NCBI RefSeq assembly: GCF_009914755.1
Contig: NC_060939.1
Length of the DNA stretch: 64,000 bases
DNA from: the human T2T-CHM13v2.0 reference genome, Homo sapiens
Strand: one strand, 5' to 3'
The translations under genes were made by a program, and so were the position numbers. The notes below the pieces were generated by a model. That model did no database searches and was not told where the DNA came from. It was given only the letters and a program-made list of their open reading frames with translations. Below, piece after piece: positions 3,085-40,560 of this stretch (its first letter is position 1; each line of letters starts with the position of its first letter).

Positions 3085-4040
3085 TATTTTTTATTTGTGT
3101 AAATTTAATAGGTAGAAGTCCAGTTTTGTAACATGGATATATTGCATGGCAGTGAAGTCTGGACTTTAAGTGTAATCATCACCTGAATGTAGGCCCTACC
3201 CGTTAAGTAACTTCTCCCTTTTGCCCCAATGTCCTGACACCCTTTCAAGTCTTCAGTGTCTGTTATTTCACACTCTATGTCCATGTGTACACTTTATTTA
3301 CTTTCTAATTATAAATGATAACACGCAGCATTTGACTTTGTTTCTGAGTTGTTTCACTTAAGTTTATGCCCCCCAATTCCATCCATGTTGTGGCAAAATA
3401 TATGATTTCATTCTTTTTTATGCCTGAATAGTATTCCATTGTGTATATATACCATAGTTTCCTTATCCATTCAACTGTTGGTGGACACTTTGATTGATTC
3501 CAAATCTTTACTATTGTGAATAGTACTGTGATGAACATGAGAATATAAATGTCTTTTTGATATAATTATTTATTTTTCCTTTGGGAAGATACCCAGTAGT
3601 GGTATTTTATTGCTGGATGGAATGGTAGCTCTATTGTAGTTATTTGAGTAATCTCCATACTGTCTTTGATAGAGGTTGTGCTAACTCAGATTCCCACCAA
3701 CAATATATAAGTGTTTCCTTTTCTCTGCATCCTTGCCAACACCTGTTGATTTTTACTTTTTAATAACAGCCTTTCTGACTGGTGTAGGATGGTATCTGAC
3801 TGTGATTTTAATTTGCACTTCTCTGGTTATTATGTTGAGCACTTTTTCATATGCTTTTTGGCCATTCACGTTTTCTTTTGAAAAATATCTATTCATGTTT
3901 TTTGCTTACATATTAGTGAGGCTATTTGAGGGTTTTTTGTTGTTGTTGTTGAGTTGTTTGAGTTCCTTGTAAGTTCGTAATATCAGTCCCCTGTCAGATC
4001 ATAGTTTGCAAATATTTTCTCCCATTCTGCAATTGGTTTA
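3085..4040 (-). mobile_element. L1PB/L1MA-type 3' end (ORF2 C-terminus + 3'UTR), 5'-truncated
   Basis: ORF 3305-3538(-) reads LFTIVKIWNQSKCP..WIRKLWYIYTMEYY, homologous to the ORF2p C-terminus. Confidence 0.85.
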
Positions 4041-5859
4041 CTTCCTTTTCCAGTTTTGTTTTTGTTTTCATTTTTGTTTTATTGTGATCTGAATATTGAC
4101 TTATACCATTTTTACCTTTTATAATTTATTGAAGTTATCTGCAGTGTAATATATTAGTAAAATCAGATGATATTTTATTCCATGGACATTTTAGAAGAAG
4201 GTGTATTGTAGTTTTAGGCTATGAATGGCATCCATTTTATTTGTCTCATAAATGATTCTTTAATTCCCTATGGCTATAATCTTTTGTGTGCTTGCACTAA
4301 GTCCAACATGGACAGAGGCAGATTAGTTCTTTTTCTACTAAGATTTTTATTATTTATTGTTCTATGCCTTTGGATTATAAATATTTGGTGATTTTTTTAA
4401 TGCAGAAAAAAATGTATGCATACATGTCCTAACTTCAGTGTGAATTGTATATTTTGTGTTATAAAGTTCTCTTGCATGTCACGATTTATGAATGTGGTTC
4501 TATTCTGTGAAGGGCAAAGCTGCTCAGTGACCGATGACAAGAAATTTTAGGTCATTCTCCTCAGTCAGGAATTTATAGTAGAAATTACTGATAAAATAAA
4601 ATTTGTAACAGTATTAGGTAAAAACAGAATAAATAGAATAATCATAATGTTTGTTCCTTATAACAAAATAAATTCTAGGAGAGATGAATAAATCTTAATA
4701 AGTAATTTAGAAAACATTATATAATTCTAAAACGAAGAAAGACTTCCTAATTATGATGTGAAACCCAGAAACTCTTAACAGGGAAGATTGTCAAATGTGC
4801 ATATATTATAGGTCAATTATGAATCCTAAAAAATAAAAAGATTTTAATGTTAAAAAATCACAAATAAAGTTCAATTACATAGGCCAAAATGTATGAATAT
4901 ATACTACAAGAGAAGGAAAAATAATCTATGAATGTTTCCTGTCAAGATATGTGAAAGGACAAATAACCCAAAAGAAAAATGGCCAAGAGTCTAAATAGAT
5001 ATTTCACAACAGAAAAAAAATACAAATAGCCAAAAACATGTAAGAAGAATGTACAACATAATTAGTAATAATGCAAATGCTAAAAAAATAGCAGCATGTA
5101 ATATTTTCTATAATGATTCCTATAATAATTTCACACTGTAATGGGTGAAGTGTTGGGTAATTGATACTTACTTTTACTAACGATGGGTGTGTCAGTTAGT
5201 ACATTTCTATTTCAAGCAACCAAATTTTAAAATATGTATACCCTTCTCCACCTAGAAATTAATCTTGATTTTAAAAAACTCACAAGATTTGTTTACATAT
5301 TTATAATGAAAACATCTTGGAGGCTATCTGAAGGACTTAACAATAAAAGAATATGTCAAATCAATATAATGAAATGTTAGGCAAATGATTTAGACATGAG
5401 ATTAATGTATATATTCATGGTATCAAAAATTGTCCCAGATATATTGCTTAAAGATGAAAGATATATAGAATATTATGCAAATTGTAAGTTAATTGTTTTT
5501 GAAATAAGGCGTGTATGCAGTTCAGGAAAACATTTCAAATGTTTGTCTGTAAAGCATTAATAATAGTTCCTCCTGGGATGGGTCTATGACTAAAAATAAA
5601 ATAAATTGCAGGAATGTGTGGTTAAGAATGATGAATTAAAGGGGTTTTTAATCCCGCACTCTTCTCTGAAGCCAACTGGAAAAAATAAAAGCATAGTGGA
5701 ATTACTCATGGTAAATGAAACTAGAAAGGAGTTCCCACAAGCCATGGAGTAAAAGAAATAGCTGCCAAATATAGTGAGGTCAGAATCAAAACAAAGGAAG
5801 ACACAGCCATTTTTACATGATTAAATAAATAAATAAATAAATAAATTGGGATAAAGAGA

Positions 5860-6530
5860 CAAATCTCTAGTGCAGTAAATTCCAAATAAATTCTGTAGCT
5901 ATTGGCCCCTCAGGTATGTGGTAGGTATCTTCCTATCCCTTAATTGTGGGCTCCACATCCAACATTTTTTCCAAAGAGTACACATCAAAAGAGAGAAAGA
6001 AGTAATTTACCCTACAGAATCTTGAAAAACCTCAGCCATGTGACCAAGGTCAACACCAACTATTATTATAAGTCATGTTGATAGCATGGATCTTTATATG
6101 GTATGATAAAAATGTCACCTTACCTCTTTAGTCTTCCTCCCCAAAAGCATACAACTCCACTCTAACCATGAAAAAGTTATCAGAGAAGCCCACACTGATG
6201 GGCATTCTATAAGATGCTTGACCAGTACTTCTCAAAGTGGTTAATGTCATCCAAAACAAGGAATGTCTGAGAAATGATCACAACCCAGGGAAAACTGAGA
6301 AGAGGCATGATGCCAACATGTGATGTGGTACCTAATGCAGTTTCCTAATGATCTTTTTCCAGGATAGGTTCCTGGGGTAGAAAAAGGTCATTAGGAAAAA
6401 AATATTTATAATCTGAATAAAATATGAACTTTAGTTAATATATTAATATTAGTCTATTAGTTCAACAGGAGGAACTCGTGTCGGGTATATGGAAGCTCTC
6501 TGTAGTATCTATCACATCTTTCATATATTA
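5860..6530 (+). mobile_element. Old L1MC/MD 3'UTR fragment
   Basis: gtcatgttgatagcatgg, gggcattctataagatgcttgaccagtacttctcaaagt, gggtatatggaagctctctgta motifs. Confidence 0.6.
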
Positions 6531-6970: not shown

Positions 6971-9476
6971 CTGAGGTAGGTCTTCAAGATGTGTCTAAGA
7001 AAAAAGGTTGATTCAAGAAGAAAGAATTTCACTGAAAGAAAAAAATGGCAAAGTGGCAAACTGAAGAGCTAGGAAAAATGCTTAGAACCAGAACAGAAAC
7101 TAGAAGAGTTATTAATTGTGGGCTCCAGGTTATATGTGAAACAAAAAATAAAATAAAATAAAATTCATCTGAAGATACTTAATCCCCTTTAAATTATTTT
7201 TTTTCCCTCCACTATGAAATATCACCAGTTGACAGGAGATACAGATATTTAACCAAGTAAAACTCTAAAACGTTGGCTTTCAATCCACTCTTTCATACGA
7301 TGGACACAACCAGGTGTGTTTATTGAACGCTGCAGGATACTCTAGATCTAGCAATGAGCAGAAGCAAGGTTCACATTGGAGGCATTCTGTGCTATGATAA
7401 AACATATTTATCATGAGGGAGAAAAGGAATGTATTGTGGTCAGCCAATTGTGTGGAAAAGAATATATGTAATAGACTTCATAGGATTTTGCAGTGTATAT
7501 GTGTAGTTATTTGAGAAAATTGCCTGGGGCTTGTTTTCATTCACACTTATCTTCACCTCTTCTACCACCATGCTTTCCTCCAAGTAATCAGTAAGCAGAA
7601 ATGAAATAGTTGGAATCAGCAGCATTCCGAGTTAAAGATGTGAGCATTTTATGTGTAAAGGGTCAGTTGTATTAAAAATCTTGAAATCTGTTCTGGGTGA
7701 CTGTGGGCTATTGATCTCCCCATTGTGGAATGCATCCTAGTTGAAGGTTAGCCAGAGATCTTCACAATAGTGTTTCTGCAGGCAAAGCCGCCTTCCTCTG
7801 TTCGCGAGGAAACTGTTTAATTCATAAAGCTTTGATGCTTAAACTGTTTCTGACCTTCTGTGAGCACTTCAAAGGGGAAAATTAGCTGCCTGGAAAAATA
7901 TAATGACCTAAATCCAGCAATTTGGGACACACATGTTTTAGTCTGTTGAACTCATGTTGACTATTTATACTGTGTTTCTTTTTGGAACAGATTGCCTTGC
8001 AGGCCTATAATTGGATAAAGGTGCTAATTTGGAGAGTTTGAAAATGACTAGGTATCGATTTCTCATTTAAGTGCCATTCCTATTAGAATCTTAGCTCAGA
8101 AGCAAGATGTAAGAATCTGTGCTTAAAGTTTCTTTCTCTCTATTTACGCTTTTTTTATTATTTGCATTTCTTAAAGTAAAATTATATTCATGATAAATAT
8201 ATAAAGAAGCAGCAATACATTTTTTCTTTTCGATTATTAACTTGATTTTTTAAAAGAAATTTTGTGTTCACAGAAAAATTGAGCAGAAAGTATAAAGTTT
8301 CCATATGCCCCTTGTCCCTACACATGACAACCCTCTTCATTATTGACATCCCTTACCACAGTGGTACATTTATTACAATTGATGAACTTACATTGACATA
8401 TCACTACCACTCAGAGCCCATAGTATACATTAGGGTTTACTCTGGATGTTGTACGTTCTGTGGGTTTGGACAACCTTATAATGACATATATCCATTGCAA
8501 TATCATACAGAATGATTTTACTGCCCTAAACATCCTCCAGTTTCCGCCTGTTTTCTCCTTTTGATCAATCCATGAGAACTGACAATCGTATTACTGTCCC
8601 TGTAATTTTGCCTTTTCTAGAATGTCATAGAGTAGTTGGAATCATACAGTATTGGATTATTTCACTTAGTGATATACATTTAAGATTCCTTTATATCTTT
8701 TCATGGCTTGATAGCCAATTTCTTTTTAGAGCTCAATCTACTGTCAGATGTACCACAGTTTATCCATTCACCTACTAAAGAACATCTTGTTTCTTCCAAG
8801 TTTTGGCAACTATAGATAAAGCTGTGTGCCGGTTTTTGTGTGAGCATGAGTTTTCAACTCATTTGAGTAAATACCAAAGAGCACGATTGCTGGATCATAA
8901 GGTAAGAGTATGTTTAGTTTGGTTAAAAAAAAATTGTCTTTCAAAGTAGTGATACCATTTTGAATTCTTACCAGAAATAACTGTGTGTTCCTCACCAGCA
9001 TTTGGTACCTTCAGTATTTTGTAATTCTGTGAAGAATGTTGTTGGTATTGTGATAGGATACACTGAATCTGTAGATCACTTTGGGTAGTATGGGTAGTAT
9101 GTACATTTTAACAATACTGTCTCTACCAACCCATGAACATGGGATATCTTTCCATGCACTTGTGTTCTTTTCAATGTCCTTTATCAGTGTTTTATAGTTT
9201 TCAGTGGAGAGATTTTTCACCTTCTTGGTCACATTTATTTTTAGGTATCTTATTTTTTTTATTTTATTATTATTACACTTTAAGTTTTAGGGTACATGTG
9301 CACAATGTGCAGGTTAGTTACATATGTATACATGTGCCATGCTGGTGTGCTGCACCCATTAACTCGTCATTTAGCATTAGGTATATCTCCTAATGCTATC
9401 CCTCCCCCCTCCCCCCACCCCACAACAGTCCCCAGAGTGTGATGTTCCTCTTCCTGTGTCCATGTGTTCTCATTGT

Positions 9477-13302
<3,826 letters not shown>

Positions 13303-13365
13303 TATGATATTAGCTGGTTATTTTGCTCGTTAGTTGATGCAGTTTCTTCCTAGCCTTGATGGTCT

Positions 13366-14382
13366 TTACAACTTGGCATGATTTTGCAGTGGCTGGTACC
13401 GGTTGTTCCTTTCCATGTTTAGTGCTTCCTTCAGGAGCTCTTTTAGGGCAGGCCTGGTGGTGACAAAATCTCTCAGCATTTGCTTGTCTGTAAAGTATTT
13501 TATTTCTCCTTCACTTATGAAGCTTAGTTTGGCTGGATATGAAATTCTGGGTTGAAAATTCTTTTCTTTAAGAATGTTGAATATTGGCCCCCACTCTCTT
13601 CTGGCTTGTAGAGTTTCTGACAAGAGATCCGCTGTTAGTCTGATGGGCTTCCCTTTGTGGGTAACCCGACCTTTCTCTCTGGCTGCCCTTAACATTTTTT
13701 CCTTCATTTCAACTTTGGTGAATCTGACAATTATGTGTCTTGGAGTTGCTCTTCTCGAGGAGTATCTTTGTGGCGTTCTCTGTACTTCCTGAATCTGAAT
13801 GTTGGCCTGCCTTGCTAGATTGGGGAAGTTCTCCTGCATAATATCCTGCAGAGTGTTTTCCAACTTGGTTCCATTCTCCCCATCACTTTCAGGTACACCT
13901 ATCAGACGTAGATTTGTTCTTTTCACATAGTCCCATATTTCTTGGAGACTTTGTTCGTTTCTTTTTATTCTTTTTTCTCTAAACTTCTGTTCTCACTTCA
14001 TTTCATTCATTTCATCTTCCATCACTGATACCGTTTCTTCCAGTTGATGGCATCGTTTCCTGAGGCTTCTGCATTCTTCACGGTGTTCTCGAGCCTTGGC
14101 TTTCAGCTCCATCAGCTCCTTTAAGCACTTCTCTGTATTGGTTATTCTAGTTATACATTCGTCTAAATTTTTTTCAAAGTTTTTAACTTCTTTGCCTTTG
14201 GTTTGAATTTCCTCCTGTAGCTCAGAGTAGTTTGATCATCTGAAGCCTTCTTCTCTCAACTCATCAAAGTCATTCTCTGTCCAGCTTTGTTCCGTTGCTG
14301 GTGAGGAACTACATTCCTGTGGAGGAGGAGAGGCGCTCTGCTTTTTAGAGTTTCCAGTTTTGCTGCTCTGTTTTTTCCCCAT
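13366..14382 (-). pseudogene. L1 ORF1p, 1017-nt span with premature stop
   Basis: ATG at 14382, TAA at 13366; in-frame TGA at 13995-13993 (codon 130, MK*EQKF where consensus has Arg, a CGA>TGA CpG decay); C-terminal 186 aa match ORF1p. Confidence 0.95.
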
Positions 14383-15413
14383 CTTTGTGGTTTTATCTAC
14401 TTTTGGTCTTTGATGATGGTGATGTACAGATGGGTTTTTGGTGTGGATGTCCTGTTTGTTAGTTTTCCTTCTAACAGACAGGACCCTCAGCTGCAGGTCT
14501 GTTGGCGTTTGCTAGAGGTTCACTCCAGACCCTGTTTGCCTGGGTACCAGCAGTGGTGTCTGCAGTACAGTGGATTTTTCTGAACCGCGAATGTTGCTGT
14601 CTGATCATTCCTCTGGAAGTTTTGTCTCAGAGGAGTACCGGGCCGTGTGAGGTGTCAGTGTGCCCCTGCTGGGGGGTGCCTCCCAGTTAGGCTGCTCGGG
14701 GTTCAGGGGTCAGGGACCCACTTGAGGAGGCAGTCTGCCGGTTCTCAGATCTCCAGCTGCGTGCTGGGAGAACCACTGCTCTCTTCAAAGCTGTCAGACA
14801 GGGACATTTAAGTCTGCAGAGGTTACTGCTGTCTTTTTGTTTGTCTGTGCCCTGCCCCCAGAGGTGGAGCCTACAGAGGCAGGCAGGCCTCCTTGAGCTG
14901 TGGTGGGCTCCACCCAGTTCGAGCTTCCAGGCTGCTTTGTTTACCTAAGCAAGCCTGGGCAATGGTGGGCGCCCCTCCCCCAGCCTCGCTGCCGCCTTGC
15001 AGTTTGATCTCAGACTGCTGTGCTAGCAATTAGCAAGACTCCGTGGGCGTAGGACCCTCCGAGCCAGGTGCGGGTTATAATCTACTGGTGCGCCGTGTTT
15101 TAAGCCCGTGGAAAAGCGCAGTATTAGGGTGGGAGTGACCCGATTTTCCAGGTGCCGTCGGTCACCCCTTTCTTTGACTAGGAAAGGGAACTCCCTGACC
15201 CCTTGCGCTTCCCGAGTGAGGCAATGTCTCGCCCTGCTTTGGCTCGCGCATGGTGCGCTGCACCCACTGTCCTGCGCCCTCTGTCTGGCACTCCCTAGTG
15301 AGATGAACGCGGTACCTCAGATGGAAATGCAGAAATCACCTGTCTTCTGCGTCACTCATGCTGGGAGCTGTAGACCGGAGCTGTTCCTATTCGTCCATCT
15401 TGGCTGTAATCCC
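14383..15413 (-). promoter_or_regulatory. L1 5'UTR with sense (minus) and antisense (plus) promoter regions
   Basis: CpG-rich L1PA 5'UTR sequence; retains the ~129-bp segment at 14506-14633; activity not shown. Confidence 0.8.
14962..15178 (+). pseudogene. L1 ORF0 (antisense), disrupted
   Basis: ATGGTGGGCGCCCCTCCCCCAGCC start at 14962; CAG>TAG stop at 15031-15033 (codon 24). Confidence 0.8.
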
Positions 15414-20532: not shown

Positions 20533-20697
20533 ACCAGGTGTTTAATTCTGTTCTCTGTGGCCGTCCTGGGTTTCTGTGCTTTGCAGGATTTCTGCTACTC
20601 CTTTAATGTACTCAAGTGCTCTCCTTTGGTTACTTTAATCAAAATGTAGTTGTTTATTGTTTTGACTGTCTTTCTGAGGTAAGGAGACCAGAACTAA
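20533..20697 (+). repeat. Direct copy of 21182-21346
   Basis: About 11 mismatches in ~164 bp by manual alignment. Confidence 0.95.
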
Positions 20698-22377
20698 AAA
20701 CCCTAGAAGAAAACCTAGGCAATACCATTGCCTAGGTAGATGGAGTGGCTCTGCCAGGGCACCATTTTCCCAGGAGGCATTGCATGCTTCAGCCCTGGTC
20801 CCGAGGGGCAGGTCACAGCTGTAACTGGGAGAGGTACATGTGGTGGCTCCATTGCAACTTGGCCCCATGGAAGAGGATGTAGCAGCAGTTTGGCTCATTG
20901 ATGGTGGTCCACTAGGCAGGGGTGGTTGAGCACTGGAATGGAAGGGTACTGCAGCCACTCATCCCTGGAGCAGGACACTCTCTAGCAGTAGTTCCAGTTC
21001 CAAGAAGGCATAGCACAGTAGCTGTGTTGACCACAGTGGGTGAGGTACAGTGTCAGCTCCTGTTGTGGGGGAAGCACAGCTGTGTAGACTCAACTGGCTT
21101 ACTGCCTGTGAGGACATTTTCTCACATGGGGAAGTCCCTCCTGGTTCCAGCTGCTCCTGGATGGGAAATGGGGTGGTGGAGGCCAGGTGTTTACTTCTGT
21201 TCTCTGTGGCCATCCTGGGTTTCTGTGCTTTACAGGGTTCCTGCTACTCCTTTGAGGTACTCAAGTGTTCTCCTTTGGTTACTTTAATCAAAATGTAGTT
21301 GTTTATTGTTTTGACTGTCTTTCTGGGGTGAGAAGACCAGAACTAAGCGCTTCTAGTTGGCTGTCTTGCTAACATTACTCTCGAATTGCAGTATTTTGAA
21401 TTTGGGCCATTCTAATAGGTGAGTAGTGATGTCTCATTTTTATTTAAATTTTCAATTGCATAATGGCCTGTGGTATTGAACATCTTTTCATATCCTTACT
21501 TGCCATCTGTGTATCTTGGGTGAGATGTATGTTCATGTATTTATTTTATTTTTTACCACTTTTTTATTATTATACTTTAAGTTCTGGGATACATGTATTT
21601 CTCCTAATGCTATCCCTCCCTCAGCCTCCCCACCCCCGACAGGCCCCAGTGTGTGATGTTCCCCTCCCTGTGTCCATGTGTTCTCATTGTTCAGCTCCCA
21701 CTTATGAGTGAGAACATGCAGTGTTTGGTTTTCTGTTCCTGTGTTAGTTTGCTGAGAATGATGGTTTCCAGCTTCATCCATGTCCCTGCAAAGGACATGA
21801 ACTCATTTTTTTATGCCTGCATACTATTCCATGGTGTATATGTGCCACATTTTCTTTATCCAGTCTATCATTGATGGGCATTTGGGTTGGTTCCAAATCT
21901 TTGCTATTGTGAACAGTGCTGCAAAAAACATACGTGTGCATGTGTCTTTATAGTAGAATGATTTATAATCTTTTGGGTATATACCCAGTAATGGGATGAC
22001 TGGGTCAAATGGTATTTCTGGTTCTAAATCCTTGAGGAATCGCCACACTGTCTTCCACAATGGTGAACTAATTTATACTCCCACCAACAGTATAAAAGCA
22101 TTCCTATTTCTCCACATCCTCTCCAGTACCTATTATTTCCTGACTTCTTTTTAATGATTGCCATTCTAACTGGCATGAGATGGTATCTCATTGTGGTTTT
22201 GGTTTGCATTTCTCTAATGACCAGTGATGATGAGCTTTTTTTTTTGTCATATGTCTGTTGGCCGCATAAATGTCTTCTTTTGAGAAGTGTCTGTTCATAT
22301 CCTTCGCCCACTTTTTGATGGGGTTGTTTGTTTTTTTTTCTTGTCAATTTGTTAAAGTTCCTTGTAGATTCTGGATA

Positions 22378-22764
22378 ACAGAAATCCAGGATGGCCACAG
22401 AGAACAGAAGTAAACACCTGGCCTCCACCACCCCATTTCCCATCCAGGAGCAGCTAGAACCAGGAGGGACTTCCCCATGCAGGAAAATGTCCTCACAGGC
22501 AGTAAGCCCAGTTGAGTCCACACAGCTGTGCTTCCCCCAGAATAGGAGCTGACACTGTACCTCACCCACTGTGGTCAAACAGCTACTGTATTATGCCTTC
22601 TTGGAACTGGAACTACTGCTAGAGGGTGTCCTGCTCCAGGGATGAGTGGCTGCAGTACCCTTCCATTCCAGTGCTCAAGCACCCCTGCCTGGTGGACCAC
22701 CATCAATGAGCCAAACTGCTGCTACATCCTCTTCCATGGGGCCAAGTTGCAATGGAGCCATCAC
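22378..22764 (-). repeat. Inverted copy of 20840-21226
   Basis: About 14 substitutions + 2 single-base indels in 387 bp; ORF 22024-22578(-) repeats peptides seen in + ORFs 20922-21287 and 21050-21298. Confidence 0.97.
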
Positions 22765-23014
22765 CTTTTTTTTTTTTTTTAATTTAGATGTTCAATTGTC
22801 CCACCATTTGTTGAAATGACTATTGCATTGCTTTTGCTCCTTGGTCAATTATCATTTCCATGTCCATGGGATCAATGATCTGTTGAATATATTGATGTGG
22901 ATGTACTTCTGGGCTTTCTGTTTTGTTCCATTGATCTATTTGTCTGTTGTTTCACCAACACTTCACCATCTCGATTAATAAAGATTTATAGTAAGCCTTG
23001 AATTCAGGTAGCAT
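22762..23014 (+). repeat. Direct copy of 23940-24189
   Basis: About 15-17 substitutions, including a shared T-run and aatttagatgttca...aggtag. Confidence 0.97.
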
Positions 23015-23028
23015 TTCAACAGGGAGTC

Positions 23029-23107
23029 TACCTCTCCCAGTTACAGCTGTGCCCTACCCCTCGGGACCTGGGCTGAAGCAAGCAATGCCTCCTGGGAAGA
23101 TGGTACC
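23029..23107 (-). repeat. Inverted copy of 20758-20836
   Basis: 6 mismatches in 79 bp. Confidence 0.95.
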
Positions 23108-25689
23108 AAAACAGATATATAGACCAATAGAACAGAACAGAGGCCTCAGAAATAACACCACACATCTACAACCATCTGATCTTTGACAAACCTGACAAAA
23201 ACAAGCAATGGGGAAAGGATTTCCTATTTAATAAATGGTGTTAGGAAAACTGGCTAGCCATATGCAGAAAACTGAAACTGGGCCCCTTCTTACACCTTAT
23301 ACAAAAATTCACTCAAGTTGTATTAAAGACTAAAATGTAAGACCTAAAACTACAAAAACCCTAGAAGAAAATCTAGGCAATACCATTCAGGACATAGGCA
23401 TGGGCAAAGACTTCATGACTAAAACACCAAAAGCAATGGTAGCAATAGCCAAAATTGACAAAAGGGATCTAATTAAACTGAAGAGCTTCTGCACAGCAAA
23501 AGAAACTATCATCAGAGTGAACAGACAACCTACAGAATGGGAGAAAATTTTTTGTTCAGGTCTTTTCCCATTTTGAAATTGGGTTGTTTGCTTTCTTACT
23601 GTTGAATTTTAAGAGTTCTTTGTATATTTTGGACAACTGTCCTTTATTATATACATATTTTGTAAGTATTTTATCCCCGTCTTTGCCTTTTCTTCTCATT
23701 CTCTTCACTTATTTCACAGAGCAGAAGTTTTTAATTTTTATTAAGTTCAGCCTATCAGTTTTCTTTCTTGTGTCATGGCTTTAATGTTGTACCTAAAACG
23801 TCATTCCCCTACCCAACATCACCTTGATTTTCTCCTATACTTTCTTATAGGAATTCTACAGTTTTGCATTTTACTTTAGTTTTATGATCCATTATGAGCT
23901 AATTATTGTGAAGGGTGTGGAGGTGTGGGTTTGTCCCCACACCTTTTTTTTTTTTAATTTAGATGTTCATTTGTCCCACCATTTGTTGAAATGACTGTTG
24001 CATTGCTTTTGTTCCTTGGTCAATTATCATTTCCATGTCCATGGAATCAATGATCATTTGAATATATTGATGTGGATGTACTTCTGGGCTTTCTGTTTTG
24101 TTCCATTGATCTATTTGTCTGTTGTTTCACCAATACTTCACTGTCTTAATTAATAAAGATTTATACTAAGTCTTGAAGTGAGGTAGTGTCAGTAATCCAA
24201 CTTTATTCTCCTTCACTTTTGAGTTGGCTATACTGTTTTATTTATTTATTTATTTGTTGCCTTTCTCTATGAACTTTGAGATCACTTTGTGGATATTCAG
24301 AAAATTACTTGAAGAGATTTTGGTGGCAATTAGGTTGAATCTATAGACCTAGTTTGGAAAAAATGGTATCTTGACTATTTGCTCTATTGATAAATGTGGA
24401 CTCTCTCTCCATTTATTTAGTCTTTGACAGCTTTCATCAGAGTTTTGTATTATTTCTCATATTGTATATATATCTTGTTAGATTTATACCTAAGTATTTA
24501 ATTTTGAGGATGGTAATGTAAATAATATTGTGTTTTAATTTCAAGTTCCATTTGTTTATTGCTGATTTATAAAAAAGCAGTTGACTTTTGGAGTATGAAC
24601 ATTGTATTCTGCAACCTTGCTATAATTGCCTATTAGTTCCAGGTGTTTTTTAATAGATCCTTCTAGACTATCTACATAGAAAATAATGTTATCTGCAAAC
24701 AGTTTATTTCTTTCTAATGCTTTTTCTTCATCTATTTATATAATCATGTGCTTCTTTTTTCTTTTTTAGCTTTTTGATATAATTAATTATAATAATCGAT
24801 TCTCTAGTGATGAACCAGCCTTGCATACTTGGGAAAAATCGTATCTGGTTGTGGGTATAATTCCTTTTATACTTTGTTGGATTTAATTTGCTTACATTTT
24901 ACTGAGGATTTTTGAATCTATGTTTATGAGAGATATTAGCCTGTTATTTTCTTTTCTTAAAATATCTTTGGCTGGTTTTGATATTATGTAATGTTGAATT
25001 CATAGAGTGATTTAGGAAGTATTCCATCTTCTTCTGTCTTCTTGAAGTAATTATAGAGAATTGGTACAATTTTCTTCTGAAGTATATAATGGAATTTACC
25101 AGTGAACTTATCTGAATACAATGCTTTCTGTTTGGGAAGTTTATTAATGTTTAATAAATTTCTTTAATAGATATTGGTTTATTCAGATTGTTTCTTTTTG
25201 TATGAATTGGTCTATTTCATCTAGTTTTTCAAATTTGTGAAATTCTAAATTTGTGCAATTAGATTTGTTTATAGTATTCCTTTATTATCCTTTCCATGTC
25301 CATTGGATCTGTAGTAATGACTTATCTTTTATTTCTGATATTAGTAATTTGTGTTTTCTCTCTCTTACCCTTCAACCCCACAGTTATCATGGCTAAAAGT
25401 TTATAACTTTTATTGATCTACTCAAATAAACAGCTTTTGGTTTTATTGATTTTCTGTTGTTTCATTAATTTCTGGTTTAATTTTTATTATTTCCTTTCTG
25501 CTGCTTACTTTGGACTTAATTACTCTTCTTTTTCTAATTTCCTAAGGTAGAAACTTGGAGTATTGATCTAAGATCTTTCTCATTTTCTGGTAAAAGTATT
25601 CAATGCTATAAATTTCTAAGCACTGCTTTCACTGTATCCCACAAATGTTGATTAGTTGCATTTTCATTTTCATTTAGTTCAAAATATTT

Positions 25690-39472: not shown

Positions 39473-40560
39473 AAAATTTATTGTTGAGTTTCAGGAGTTC
39501 TCTATATGCTCTGAATATTAATCTATTTTCTGATGTGTGAACTGCAAATATTATTATCTCCCATTCTGTGGCTTGCCTGTTTACTCTGTTGATATTGTCT
39601 TTTGATGTATAATTTTTAAAAGTTTTCATGAAGTTCAATCTGTCTATTTTTTTCTTTGGTTGCCTGCACTTTTGGTGTCATAGCCAAGATCTCATTGTTA
39701 AATCTAATGACATGAAGCTTTCCCCCTGTGTTTTCTTCTAAGTCTTTTATAATTTAGCTCTTAGGAGCTAAATTAGGCTGTGGATCTGTTTTGTGGACAA
39801 AGGACTTGATTAGTTGTTTCTCCAAACATATACAAACAGCCAGTGAAGATACAAAAAGATGCTCAAAAACCACTAATCATGGGGGAATGCAAATCAAAAC
39901 TATAAGATCCTACTTCATATACATTAGGATTGCTATCATAAAAAACACATAAAATAACAAGAGTTTCTGAGAACATGGAGAACTTGCAACCCTTATGCAA
40001 TGCTGTTGGGAATGAACAATGGTACAGCTGGGATGGAAAGCAGTATGGTGGTTTCTCAAAACATTTAAATTAGAATTACCACATGATCCCTAATTTTCAC
40101 CCCATAACCAAAAGTATTAAAATCAGGGACACTATATTTGTACCACTGTGTTCATAGCAGCATTATTAGCAATAGCTGAAGGTAGAAGCAACCCAGGTGT
40201 CTGTCAGAAGATGAATAGATAAACAAAATGTGATCGTAGATAAAGTGGAATATTATACAGCCATAAAAAAGAAGGAAATTCTGACACATGCTACAATGTA
40301 GATGAAGCTCGAAGACATTGGGAAAAGTTAAATAAGCCAGGGACAAATGTGGATGATAGCACCAAATGAAGTATTTGGAGTAAAGTCAGAAAGAGAAAGC
40401 AGAAGGGTGGTAGCTAGGAACTAGGGGAAACGTAATAAGAATTTATTGCTTAGTGGGTACAGAGATTCAGTTTTGTGAATGCACTTCATGCCATTGAGCT
40501 GTGTACTTAAAAATGATTAAAATGGTGAATTTTGTGTAACGTGTCTTTTAACACAATTTT
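39473..40560 (+). mobile_element. L1MB-type 3' portion with 5' inversion (39473-39791 antisense, 39794-40560 sense)
   Basis: ORF 39453-39638(-) NRVNRQATEWE..YRELLKLNNK; sense part tggacaaaggacttga... through gtacttaaaaatgattaaaatggtgaattt. Confidence 0.8.

What the first reader, a model, noticed from the sequence alone, without database searches (positions are those of the whole stretch)
20533..20737. Compound patch 0.8 kb outside the TSD: local duplication + 35-nt L1PA piece + fold-back
Seen: the old L1M 5'UTR is interrupted by a copy of 21182-21346 (~93%). This joins through TAA microhomology to TAAAAACCCTAGAAGAAAACCTAGGCAATACCATT (20695-20729), 33/35 identical to 23353-23387 in the inverted L1PA7 arm. 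It has CAATACC like that arm, not CATTACC as in the L1PA3 at ~10350. The junction is a perfect 11-bp hairpin: ACCTAGGCAAT (20713-20723)-ACC-ATTGCCTAGGT (20727-20737). It lies ~20 bp from the end (20758) of the template used inside the L1. Inference: a second break was repaired in the same event using L1 cDNA/RNA and snap-back synthesis, so sequence moved both ways between insert and flank.
Basis: partly seen in the sequence, partly recalled or inferred. Interest (0 to 1): 0.75.

Follow-up and report, generated by a model that had tools for sequence, protein, structure and literature searches.

The report
Repair scar beside a LINE-1 insertion
A 200-base patch in a human intron joins a copy of nearby DNA, a 35-base scrap of a LINE-1 jumping gene and a small fold-back; it is likely the scar of a second DNA break, likely mended while the neighbouring LINE-1 was inserting, and it has no sign of a function.

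Summary
The patch is real. 20534-20697 copies 21183-21346 (153/164), followed by a 35-nt L1 ORF2 piece and a fold-back. None of 26 paralogous old-L1 5' ends has the duplication, and about a dozen bases are lost with no TSD.

- Only 4 nt of the 11-bp hairpin arm are new; 3 are L1-native and 4 are flank microhomology. This is a textbook snap-back (SD-MMEJ) join.
- The L1 piece cannot be traced to the neighbouring arm. It is 33/35 to that arm, 34/35 to a younger L1 in the window, and its 33-nt core has 6,147 exact copies in the genome.
- Strand polarity favours cDNA/DNA, not RNA, as template.

The link to the L1 is circumstantial. Three flank copies (20758-20838, 20840-21226, 21183-21346) tile the interval between the patch and the TSD, starting 24 nt from the patch. 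Their ages agree, both junctions carry snap-backs, and no free-standing patch occurs in about 250 kb of controls.

Odds: same event 0.6; later break provoked by the inverted repeat 0.2; independent capture 0.15. Primate orthologs were not available. All ingredients are known, so this is a good germline fossil, not a new system.

The parts
20534..20697 (+). Piece D: direct copy of 21183-21346 (near the 5' end of the old host L1); left junction has about 1 nt of microhomology plus loose G-rich likeness
   Evidence: 153/164 identical, 9 transitions and 2 transversions; absent as a second copy in 0 of 26 paralogs
20695..20729 (+). 35-nt L1PA ORF2 piece (positions 5017-5051 of the young L1 in the window), joined to D through TAA
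   Evidence: 33/35 to the arm, 34/35 to 10345-10379; exact in 3 of 22 siblings; 33-nt core has 6,147 exact genome copies
20730..20733 (+). The only new fold-back bases (GCCT), copied from 20717-20720 after the L1-native AAT/ATT pair (loop ACC) snapped back (inferred)
20734..20737 (+). AGGT microhomology: end of the fold-back and first native bases of the right flank
   Evidence: paralog alignment
20758..20838 (+). Origin of piece C; its copy lies inverted at 23027-23107 inside the L1
   Evidence: 73/79 over 20758-20836; extension to 20838 supported by G at 20837 in 8 of 13 aligned paralog rows, as in the copy
20840..21226 (+). Origin of piece A; its copy lies inverted at 22378-22764 inside the L1; abuts C with a gap of 1-4 nt
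   Evidence: 372/386 aligned columns identical
21183..21346 (+). Origin of piece D; overlaps the origin of A by 44 nt and ends 184 nt before the TSD
21530..21542 (+). Left target-site duplication of the neighbouring L1
   Evidence: 11/13 to 23553-23565; the host L1 is collinear across the insertion
21543..22377 (-). 3' segment of the L1PA7-like element (poly-A end to ORF2 end; first-primed cDNA)
   Evidence: young-L1 positions 5244-6150; 30/767 from the majority of 29 siblings
22378..22764 (-). Copy A, joined bluntly to the first cDNA
22765..23011 (+). Copy B of the right flank (about 23941-24186), joined to A through a 3-nt microhomology
   Evidence: 228/243 over 22769-23011
23012..23026 (.). 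Junction filler made of two further fold-backs: a 10-nt inverted copy of 22809-22818 or 23984-23993, and a 5-bp (8 of 9) hairpin onto the end of C
   Evidence: 10-mer expected by chance 0.05; z -3.3, 2 of 200 shuffles as good
23027..23107 (-). Copy C, joined to the inverted arm through a 6-of-7 microhomology
23101..23551 (+). Inverted L1 arm (twin priming; about 30 nt lost at the inversion point); candidate donor 23353-23387 lies inside it
   Evidence: young-L1 positions 4765-5214; 18/451 from the majority of 22 siblings
23553..23565 (+). Right target-site duplication

Best explanation
The patch is a 200-nt insertion made of a local copy, an L1 piece and a fold-back, and it is likely the scar of a second DNA break 0.8 kb from a twin-primed L1 insertion, likely repaired in the same event by polymerase-theta-type end joining. 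Shown: the three pieces, their junction microhomologies, the small loss of host bases without a TSD, and the tiling of flank copies C, A and D between the patch and the TSD. Inferred steps: (1) a break near 20533/20734 was resected on its right side, exposing the minus strand. (2) Plus-strand copies or fragments of that exposed stretch (C, A, D) were made and shared between two junctions: C and A at the L1 inversion point, D at the patch. (3) The left end, extended through D, annealed by TAA to antisense L1 DNA, most simply the single-stranded second cDNA of this L1, and copied 35 nt. (4) Its 3' end folded back on a 3-bp stem, added 8 nt, and so created the AGGT that annealed to the right end. 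The scar is likely neutral.
For: Tiling: C starts 24 nt from the patch's right junction, A abuts C with a 1-4 nt gap, and D continues to 184 nt before the TSD. This matches the pattern of short insertions tiled next to 5' break ends and scattered over several junctions (PMC12807874, section 13 read). Age: D differs by 11/164 (6.7%, CI 3.4-11.7), against 7.9% expected from twice the L1's distance to its sibling majority (48/1218; binomial p 0.67). The four copies are not heterogeneous (chi-square p 0.26; patch versus pooled p 0.34). A rough joint estimate puts the patch at 0.76-1.0 of the L1's age, with a lower 5% bound of 0.48-0.59. The L1 piece lies within the 451 of 6,219 L1 positions held by the arm, in the same orientation, and carries family-majority letters where the arm has private changes. 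Snap-backs are present at both junctions. Background: the only 4 local duplications in the 64-kb window belong to this cluster; 3 of 55 control loci (190,758 nt) had hits, none a free-standing patch. A 3-nt primer repeat, 3-nt loop and 4-nt microhomology fit the SD-MMEJ preference (PMC5728401, passages).
Against: The donor of the 35-mer is not identifiable: 6,147 exact 33-nt copies, and a better match (34/35) to another L1 in the window. Copy A is less diverged than expected (14/386; p 0.001-0.003), and so are all four copies pooled (46/872; p 0.003-0.012). Either the clock is overestimated or the inverted arms were homogenised later, which would show that the inverted repeat does pair. D overlaps A by 44 nt and B comes from the other flank, so the tiling is not strict. 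The left junction has only about 1 nt of microhomology. The TSD is 11/13 and the endonuclease site is imperfect. The coincidences were noted after the fact. There is no ortholog evidence.
Confidence: 0.6

Rival explanations
1. The patch came later but was caused by the L1. Copies A and C form a long inverted repeat with their origins (outer edges 20758 and 23107). Pairing of that repeat would stall a fork or cause a break just outside the stem base. Repair would then copy the nearest single strands: the loop start (21183-21346) and the L1 arm beyond the stem.
For: It explains the same coincidences: the patch is 24 nt from the stem edge, D straddles the stem top at 21226, and the donor lies 250 nt beyond the other edge. 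Copy A's low divergence fits later pairing and conversion. Timing allows the patch to be up to about half as old as the L1.
Against: The arms are separated by a 1.15-kb loop and interrupted by B. The patch lacks both arm-private changes, and D is no less diverged than B or C. The likelihood ratio for the same age against half the age is 1.5-15. It does not explain why C begins where it does.
Confidence: 0.2
2. An independent double-strand break was repaired by templated insertion. It captured a scrap of L1 cDNA or genomic L1 from elsewhere (endonuclease-independent, NCLI-like), and its closeness to the complex L1 is chance.
For: All four NCLI criteria are met: 3' truncation, no TSD, no poly-A, no endonuclease site. 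NCLI loci range from 34 bp and often carry non-L1 filler and deletions (PMC1920257, passages). Thousands of equally good donors exist. The same snap-back arose in an unrelated L1 body on contig C1, so it is no signature of this event.
Against: No free-standing patch in about 250 kb of control sequence. This rival needs chance agreement of position (24 nt from a tile edge), template (overlapping A), L1 coordinate (within the arm) and age.
Confidence: 0.15
3. The 42 nt of L1 piece plus fold-back were copied ready-made from the L1 on contig C1 (L061), which has the same hairpin, so no snap-back happened here.
For: L061 matches patch 20695-20736 at 42/42. It was the only other site among the 2 candidates of a junction-centred genome search.
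Against: It is one specific donor among more than 6,000 copies on another chromosome. The patch's fold-back runs one base further along the hairpin template (11 versus 10), although that base is also native flank. The variant is not an amplified L1 lineage: no third copy among the 40 of 309 candidates scored.
Confidence: 0.03

Closest known systems
Synthesis-dependent MMEJ, snap-back type / polymerase theta templated insertions (PMC5728401, passages read; PMC11292364, abstract and outline read)
   Same: Inverted primer repeat of 3 nt with a 3-nt loop, short synthesis that creates a 4-nt microhomology, small deletion; the insert becomes part of a longer inverted repeat.
   Different: Preceded by a 164-nt template from 650 nt away and a 35-nt L1 piece, longer than the junctions discussed in the passages read; the enzyme is not testable from sequence.
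Tiled short insertions from resected break ends (breakage-replication/fusion, PMC12807874, section 13 and passages read)
   Same: Pieces of 81-387 nt (their median 184) map next to a 5' break end, abut with little gap, and end up in different junctions, in both orientations, with microhomology or filler.
   Different: Described in chromothriptic clones and tumours. Here there is no net rearrangement, there are only two junctions, D overlaps A by 44 nt, and the scar is old and germline.
L1 templated insertions and local remodelling at TPRT ends (bioRxiv 2024.08.27.596794, passages; bioRxiv 2024.12.14.628481, section 9 and passages; its version 1 PMC11702581, passages)
   Same: Twin-primed L1 with TSD and poly-A that holds duplicated flank DNA, including inverted copies, a blunt cDNA-to-genome join and small-hairpin priming.
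   Different: Those templates are typically under 250 bp and within 15 bp of the site (22 of 3,598 insertions). Here they lie 300-770 nt away, come from both flanks, sit at the inversion point, and a second junction outside the TSD carries L1 sequence.
Non-classical, endonuclease-independent L1 insertion (NCLI; PMC1920257, passages; L1 at Cas9 breaks, PMC9237045, passages)
   Same: Short internal L1 fragment without poly-A or TSD, with a target deletion, non-L1 filler and microhomology.
   Different: The filler is a long local duplication, the polarity favours a DNA/cDNA template over RNA bridging, and a likely donor lies 2.7 kb away.

Membership tests
SD-MMEJ snap-back junction | Inverted primer repeats within one strand, close to the end | tested here: met
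   AAT 20721-20723 and ATT 20727-20729, loop 3 nt, both native to L1
SD-MMEJ snap-back junction | Synthesised bases (insert plus new microhomology) copy the strand next to the distal primer repeat | tested here: met
   20730-20737 is the exact reverse complement of 20713-20720; chance 1.8e-5
SD-MMEJ snap-back junction | [quoted passage not shown] | tested here: met
   AGGT is native flank by paralog alignment; an ortholog would be a stronger test
SD-MMEJ snap-back junction | Dependence on polymerase theta | not testable with these tools
   Ancient event; other polymerases can extend stem-loops (PMC11292364 abstract)
NCLI (endonuclease-independent L1 insertion) | 3' truncation and no poly-A | tested here: met
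   35-nt internal ORF2 piece at positions 5017-5051 of 6,219
NCLI (endonuclease-independent L1 insertion) | No TSD; usually a target-site deletion | tested here: met
   No duplication at the borders. Extra bases in the 8 of 25 collinear paralogs: -16, 1, 5, 12, 14, 14, 23, 204; size uncertain because the host is a tandem array (one search gave -87 to +279)
NCLI (endonuclease-independent L1 insertion) | Site diverges from the L1 endonuclease consensus | tested here: met
   G-rich junction without a T/A tract; judged by eye, not scored
NCLI (endonuclease-independent L1 insertion) | Pre-insertion state verified in an outgroup genome | not testable with these tools
   No relatives held; only paralogs were used
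NCLI (endonuclease-independent L1 insertion) | L1 RNA reverse-transcribed at the break | tested here: inconclusive
   Snap-back polarity implies a plus-strand primer copying antisense L1, i.e. cDNA/DNA; a minus-strand route with a cross-strand switch cannot be excluded (inference)
Tiled insertions from a resected break end | Origins line up with little gap or overlap | tested here: inconclusive
   C to A gap 1-4 nt (met); A and D overlap by 44 nt; B lies in the other flank
Tiled insertions from a resected break end | Tile begins next to a breakpoint from a 5' end | tested here: met
   C starts 24 nt right of the junction at 20734, the left edge of the retained plus strand
Tiled insertions from a resected break end | Pieces are distributed over different destination junctions | tested here: met
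   C and A in the L1 inversion point, D in the patch; assumes one event
Twin-primed L1 insertion (neighbour) | TSD, poly-A end, inverted 5' arm adjacent in L1 coordinates, microhomology at the arm's outer junction | tested here: met
   TSD 11/13; arm 4765-5214 and 3' part 5244-6150; T-run shared at the outer junction
L1PA7 subfamily (neighbour and 35-mer) | Diagnostic positions of the subfamily consensus | not testable with these tools
No repeat library; only 88% to the young L1 and 91-92% to best genome siblings.

The most novel reading that the evidence does not exclude
This is a germline fossil of one L1 integration that involved two breaks 0.8 kb apart. The intervening fragment's resected strand was copied in tiles shared between both junctions, while the L1's second cDNA served as template for the distant break. 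Sequence thus moved both ways across the TSD with no net rearrangement. If such scars are common beside old inverted L1s, short L1 scraps now counted as separate or endonuclease-independent insertions are partly by-products of a neighbouring insertion, and the tiling model from tumours applies to the primate germ line.
Probability: 0.5. Interest if true: 0.5.

Novelty: new member of a known kind. Interest (0 to 1): 0.32.

Why it matters
The patch itself is very likely neutral: it is intronic in two lncRNA genes and inside a decayed L1. Its value is as a readable record of repair. It suggests that L1 integration intermediates can stay open long enough to exchange templates with a break outside the target-site duplication, and that the tiled-insertion pattern described in tumour and cell-line genomes also occurred in the germ line. 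It also shows that a native 3-bp mini-hairpin in L1 ORF2 has seeded the same snap-back at two unrelated places. It suggests a cheap genome-wide test: are short TSD-less L1 scraps enriched within about 1 kb of inverted L1s that hold the same L1 positions?

Tried and rejected
- Duplication as part of the host family: rejected, 0 of 26 paralog loci have two copies. These are 25 distinct places, several of them apparently segmental copies of one another.
- The younger L1 at 9177-15395 as donor: it matches 34/35 but differs at the letter that makes the primer repeat, so it could not give this snap-back; set aside.
- Tracing the donor by private letters: failed. The patch has family-majority letters at both differing sites. 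The arm's ACTA just upstream (0 of 22 siblings) resembles the end of D, but D explains those letters itself.
- Exact deletion size: separate long-anchor alignments slipped between tandem units (6 of 26 usable, -87 to +279). One alignment through the site was collinear in 8 of 25 loci, median 13.
- An amplified L1 variant carrying the hairpin: not found (only 40 of 222 and 40 of 309 candidates were scored).
- Polarising the three-way overlap 21183-21226: the patch and copy A share no derived letter, which is uninformative.
- Literature: 7 searches listed no description of this locus, or of a second junction outside an L1 TSD that carries the same L1's sequence. Only listings were seen for most papers. 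The 10 of 30 LINC02253 papers listed concern expression or gene nesting. Supplements of the two bioRxiv L1 preprints and of PMC12807874 were not read and may hold similar cases.

Full report
1. Observation. The window shows, on the plus strand: host flank to 20533; a direct copy of 21183-21346 at 20534-20697 (153/164, no gaps); a 35-nt L1 ORF2 piece at 20695-20729 that shares TAA with the end of the copy; and a perfect 11-bp hairpin at 20713-20737. The host is a decayed minus-strand L1 whose ORF1 and ORF2 remnants lie at 18559-18326 and 17660-15405. A search of the window's own genome gave 26 paralogous host 5' ends. These are 25 distinct places, and several look like segmental copies of one another.

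2. Empty site. In the paralogs the host continues into the letters at 20734 onward. The hairpin's right arm therefore has three parts: ATT is L1-native, GCCT is new, and AGGT is shared with the flank. Eight of 25 paralogs aligned collinearly through the site, with -16, 1, 5, 12, 14, 14, 23 and 204 extra bases. A loss of about a dozen bases is the best reading, but the host is a 74-nt tandem array and separate anchors gave -87 to +279. There is no TSD. The chance that the 8 letters after the L1 piece copy the stem is 1.8e-5, and 0.0036 for the 4 new letters alone. Perfect hairpins of this size occur at 3 sites in the window. Before extension the stem is only 3 bp and is not the predicted fold. 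Polymerase theta extends stem-loops from two terminal pairs (PMC11292364, abstract). SD-MMEJ prefers 3-4 nt primer repeats less than 10 nt apart (PMC5728401, passages).

3. Source of the L1 piece. It is 33/35 to the neighbouring arm but 34/35 to the younger L1 at 10345-10379. The younger copy differs at the letter that forms the primer repeat, so it is an unlikely donor. At both positions where the arm differs, 21 of 22 sibling L1s have the patch's letter, and 3 of 22 match all 35. The 33-nt core occurs exactly 6,147 times in the genome. Sequence therefore places the piece in the family but not in this copy. A junction-centred search found only one other site with the same fold-back (2 of 2 candidates). 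It is an otherwise continuous L1 body on contig C1 (L061), where the hairpin is followed by a return into L1. I read it as an independent snap-back at a native mini-hairpin. If the snap-back was made by the plus-strand end, the template was antisense L1, that is cDNA or DNA and not mRNA. This is inference: a minus-strand route with a switch between the strands of an RNA:cDNA hybrid needs as many steps and is not excluded.

4. The neighbour. Between TSDs at 21530-21542 and 23553-23565 (11/13) lies a twin-primed L1. In order it holds the 3' part (21543-22377), copy A (inverted 20840-21226), copy B (direct, right flank about 23941-24186), a 15-nt filler, copy C (inverted 20758-20838) and the inverted arm (23101-23551). 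C extends two bases further than BLAST shows, because 8 of 13 paralog rows have the copy's G at 20837. C and A thus abut with a 1-4 nt gap. The filler is itself two fold-backs: a 10-nt inverted copy from within B (0.05 expected by chance) and a short hairpin on C. The origins of C, A and D cover 20758-21346, starting 24 nt from the patch's right junction and ending 184 nt before the TSD.

5. Timing. The L1 is 48/1218 (3.9%) from the majority of its best genome siblings, whose medians are 4.7% and 5.3% (best hits, so biased low). Copies made at insertion should then differ by about 7.9%. D (11/164), B (15/243) and C (6/79) fit. A (14/386) is too low (p 0.001-0.003), as is the pool of all four (46/872; p 0.003-0.012). 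The four are not heterogeneous among themselves (p 0.26). A simple likelihood that combines D's divergence with the absence of both arm-private changes, and assumes the arm was the donor, gives a patch age of 0.76-1.0 of the L1's, lower bound 0.48-0.59. An absolute age near 30 million years for L1PA7 is recalled, not from a call.

6. Background. Local duplications of 60 nt or more at 88% or more occur 4 times in the 64-kb window, all in this cluster, and in 3 of 55 control loci (190,758 nt). L040 is two L1 copies overlapping in L1 coordinates. L046 is a tandem duplication inside an L1. L056 is a 127-nt inverted flank copy at an L1's 5' junction. So free-standing patches are rare, while L1-associated flank copies are not exceptional (1 of 29 siblings).

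7. Mechanism. Most likely (0.6), a second break near 20533/20734 shared a repair centre with the L1 intermediate. Resection exposed the minus strand from 20734. Pieces C, A and D were copied or released from it and distributed over two junctions. The left end read D, then 35 nt of the single-stranded second cDNA, snapped back, and sealed on AGGT. The pieces and junctions are shown; their order, the donor, the enzyme and the simultaneity are inferred. The main rival (0.2) is a later break or fork stall at the base of the long inverted repeat that A and C created. It explains the same positional coincidences and A's low divergence, but fits the dating less well. Independent NCLI-like capture gets 0.15, and a ready-made copy from L061 gets 0.03.

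8. Comparison with what is known. The right junction meets every sequence criterion of snap-back SD-MMEJ. The L1 scrap meets the four NCLI criteria, and NCLI loci as short as 34 bp with filler and deletions are described (PMC1920257, passages); L1 also enters Cas9 breaks by short microhomology (PMC9237045, passages). Templated flank copies inside L1s (22 of 3,598 tumour insertions, typically under 250 bp and within 15 bp; bioRxiv 2024.08.27.596794, passages) and inverted duplications by small hairpins at L1 ends (bioRxiv 2024.12.14.628481, section 9 and passages; version 1 passages) are described. So are tiled insertions next to 5' break ends that land in different junctions (PMC12807874, section 13 and passages). 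Seven searches listed no report of this locus or of this exact two-way arrangement. Supplements were not read, and subscription papers are mostly outside the library.

9. Verdict. It is a new instance of known repair chemistry with an unusual, possibly reciprocal layout, and there is no evidence of function. Interest 0.32; 0.5 if the single-event, two-way reading is confirmed and proves general.

Noticed in passing
L061:908-978 (G000:C1:93113907-93113977): An otherwise continuous L1 carries the same snap-back at the same ORF2 mini-hairpin (10-bp arm), then returns into L1 with a net gain of 8 nt. It was the only other such site found.
   Followed up: yes
L056:618-744 and 3440-3566: A sibling L1 has a 127-nt inverted copy of its 3' flank (about 1 kb beyond the poly-A) at its 5' junction, 91% identical: another L1-associated templated insertion.
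   Followed up: partly
L046:2113-2437: 163-nt head-to-tail duplication inside an L1 body, 91% identical.
   Followed up: no
L044:199-1225 and 1235-2409: Sibling L1 with an inverted 1-kb piece from L1 positions 1404-2439, far from the forward part (4968-6155): an inversion with a 2.5-kb internal gap.
   Followed up: no
window 23012-23026: The filler inside the L1's inversion junction is explained by two fold-backs, one onto copy B and one onto copy C.
   Followed up: yes
window 20840-21226 and 22378-22764: This inverted pair is less diverged (3.6%) than the L1's age predicts; its first 170 nt have only 3 differences, which may reflect conversion between the arms.
   Followed up: partly
window 21596-21597: The L1's 3' UTR lacks about 80 nt here relative to the young L1 (positions 6015 to 6097).
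   Followed up: no
window 9177-15395: A full-length (6,219 nt) younger L1 on the minus strand interrupts ORF2 of the same old L1 that hosts the patch; RefSeq enhancers and a LINC02253 exon overlap its 5' end.
   Followed up: no
window 25110-25188: Imperfect 38-bp inverted repeat with a 3-nt loop (71% complementary) in old L1 sequence.
   Followed up: no
window 39750-39775: Perfect 11-bp hairpin with a 4-nt loop in non-repetitive-looking sequence; possibly another snap-back scar.
   Followed up: no
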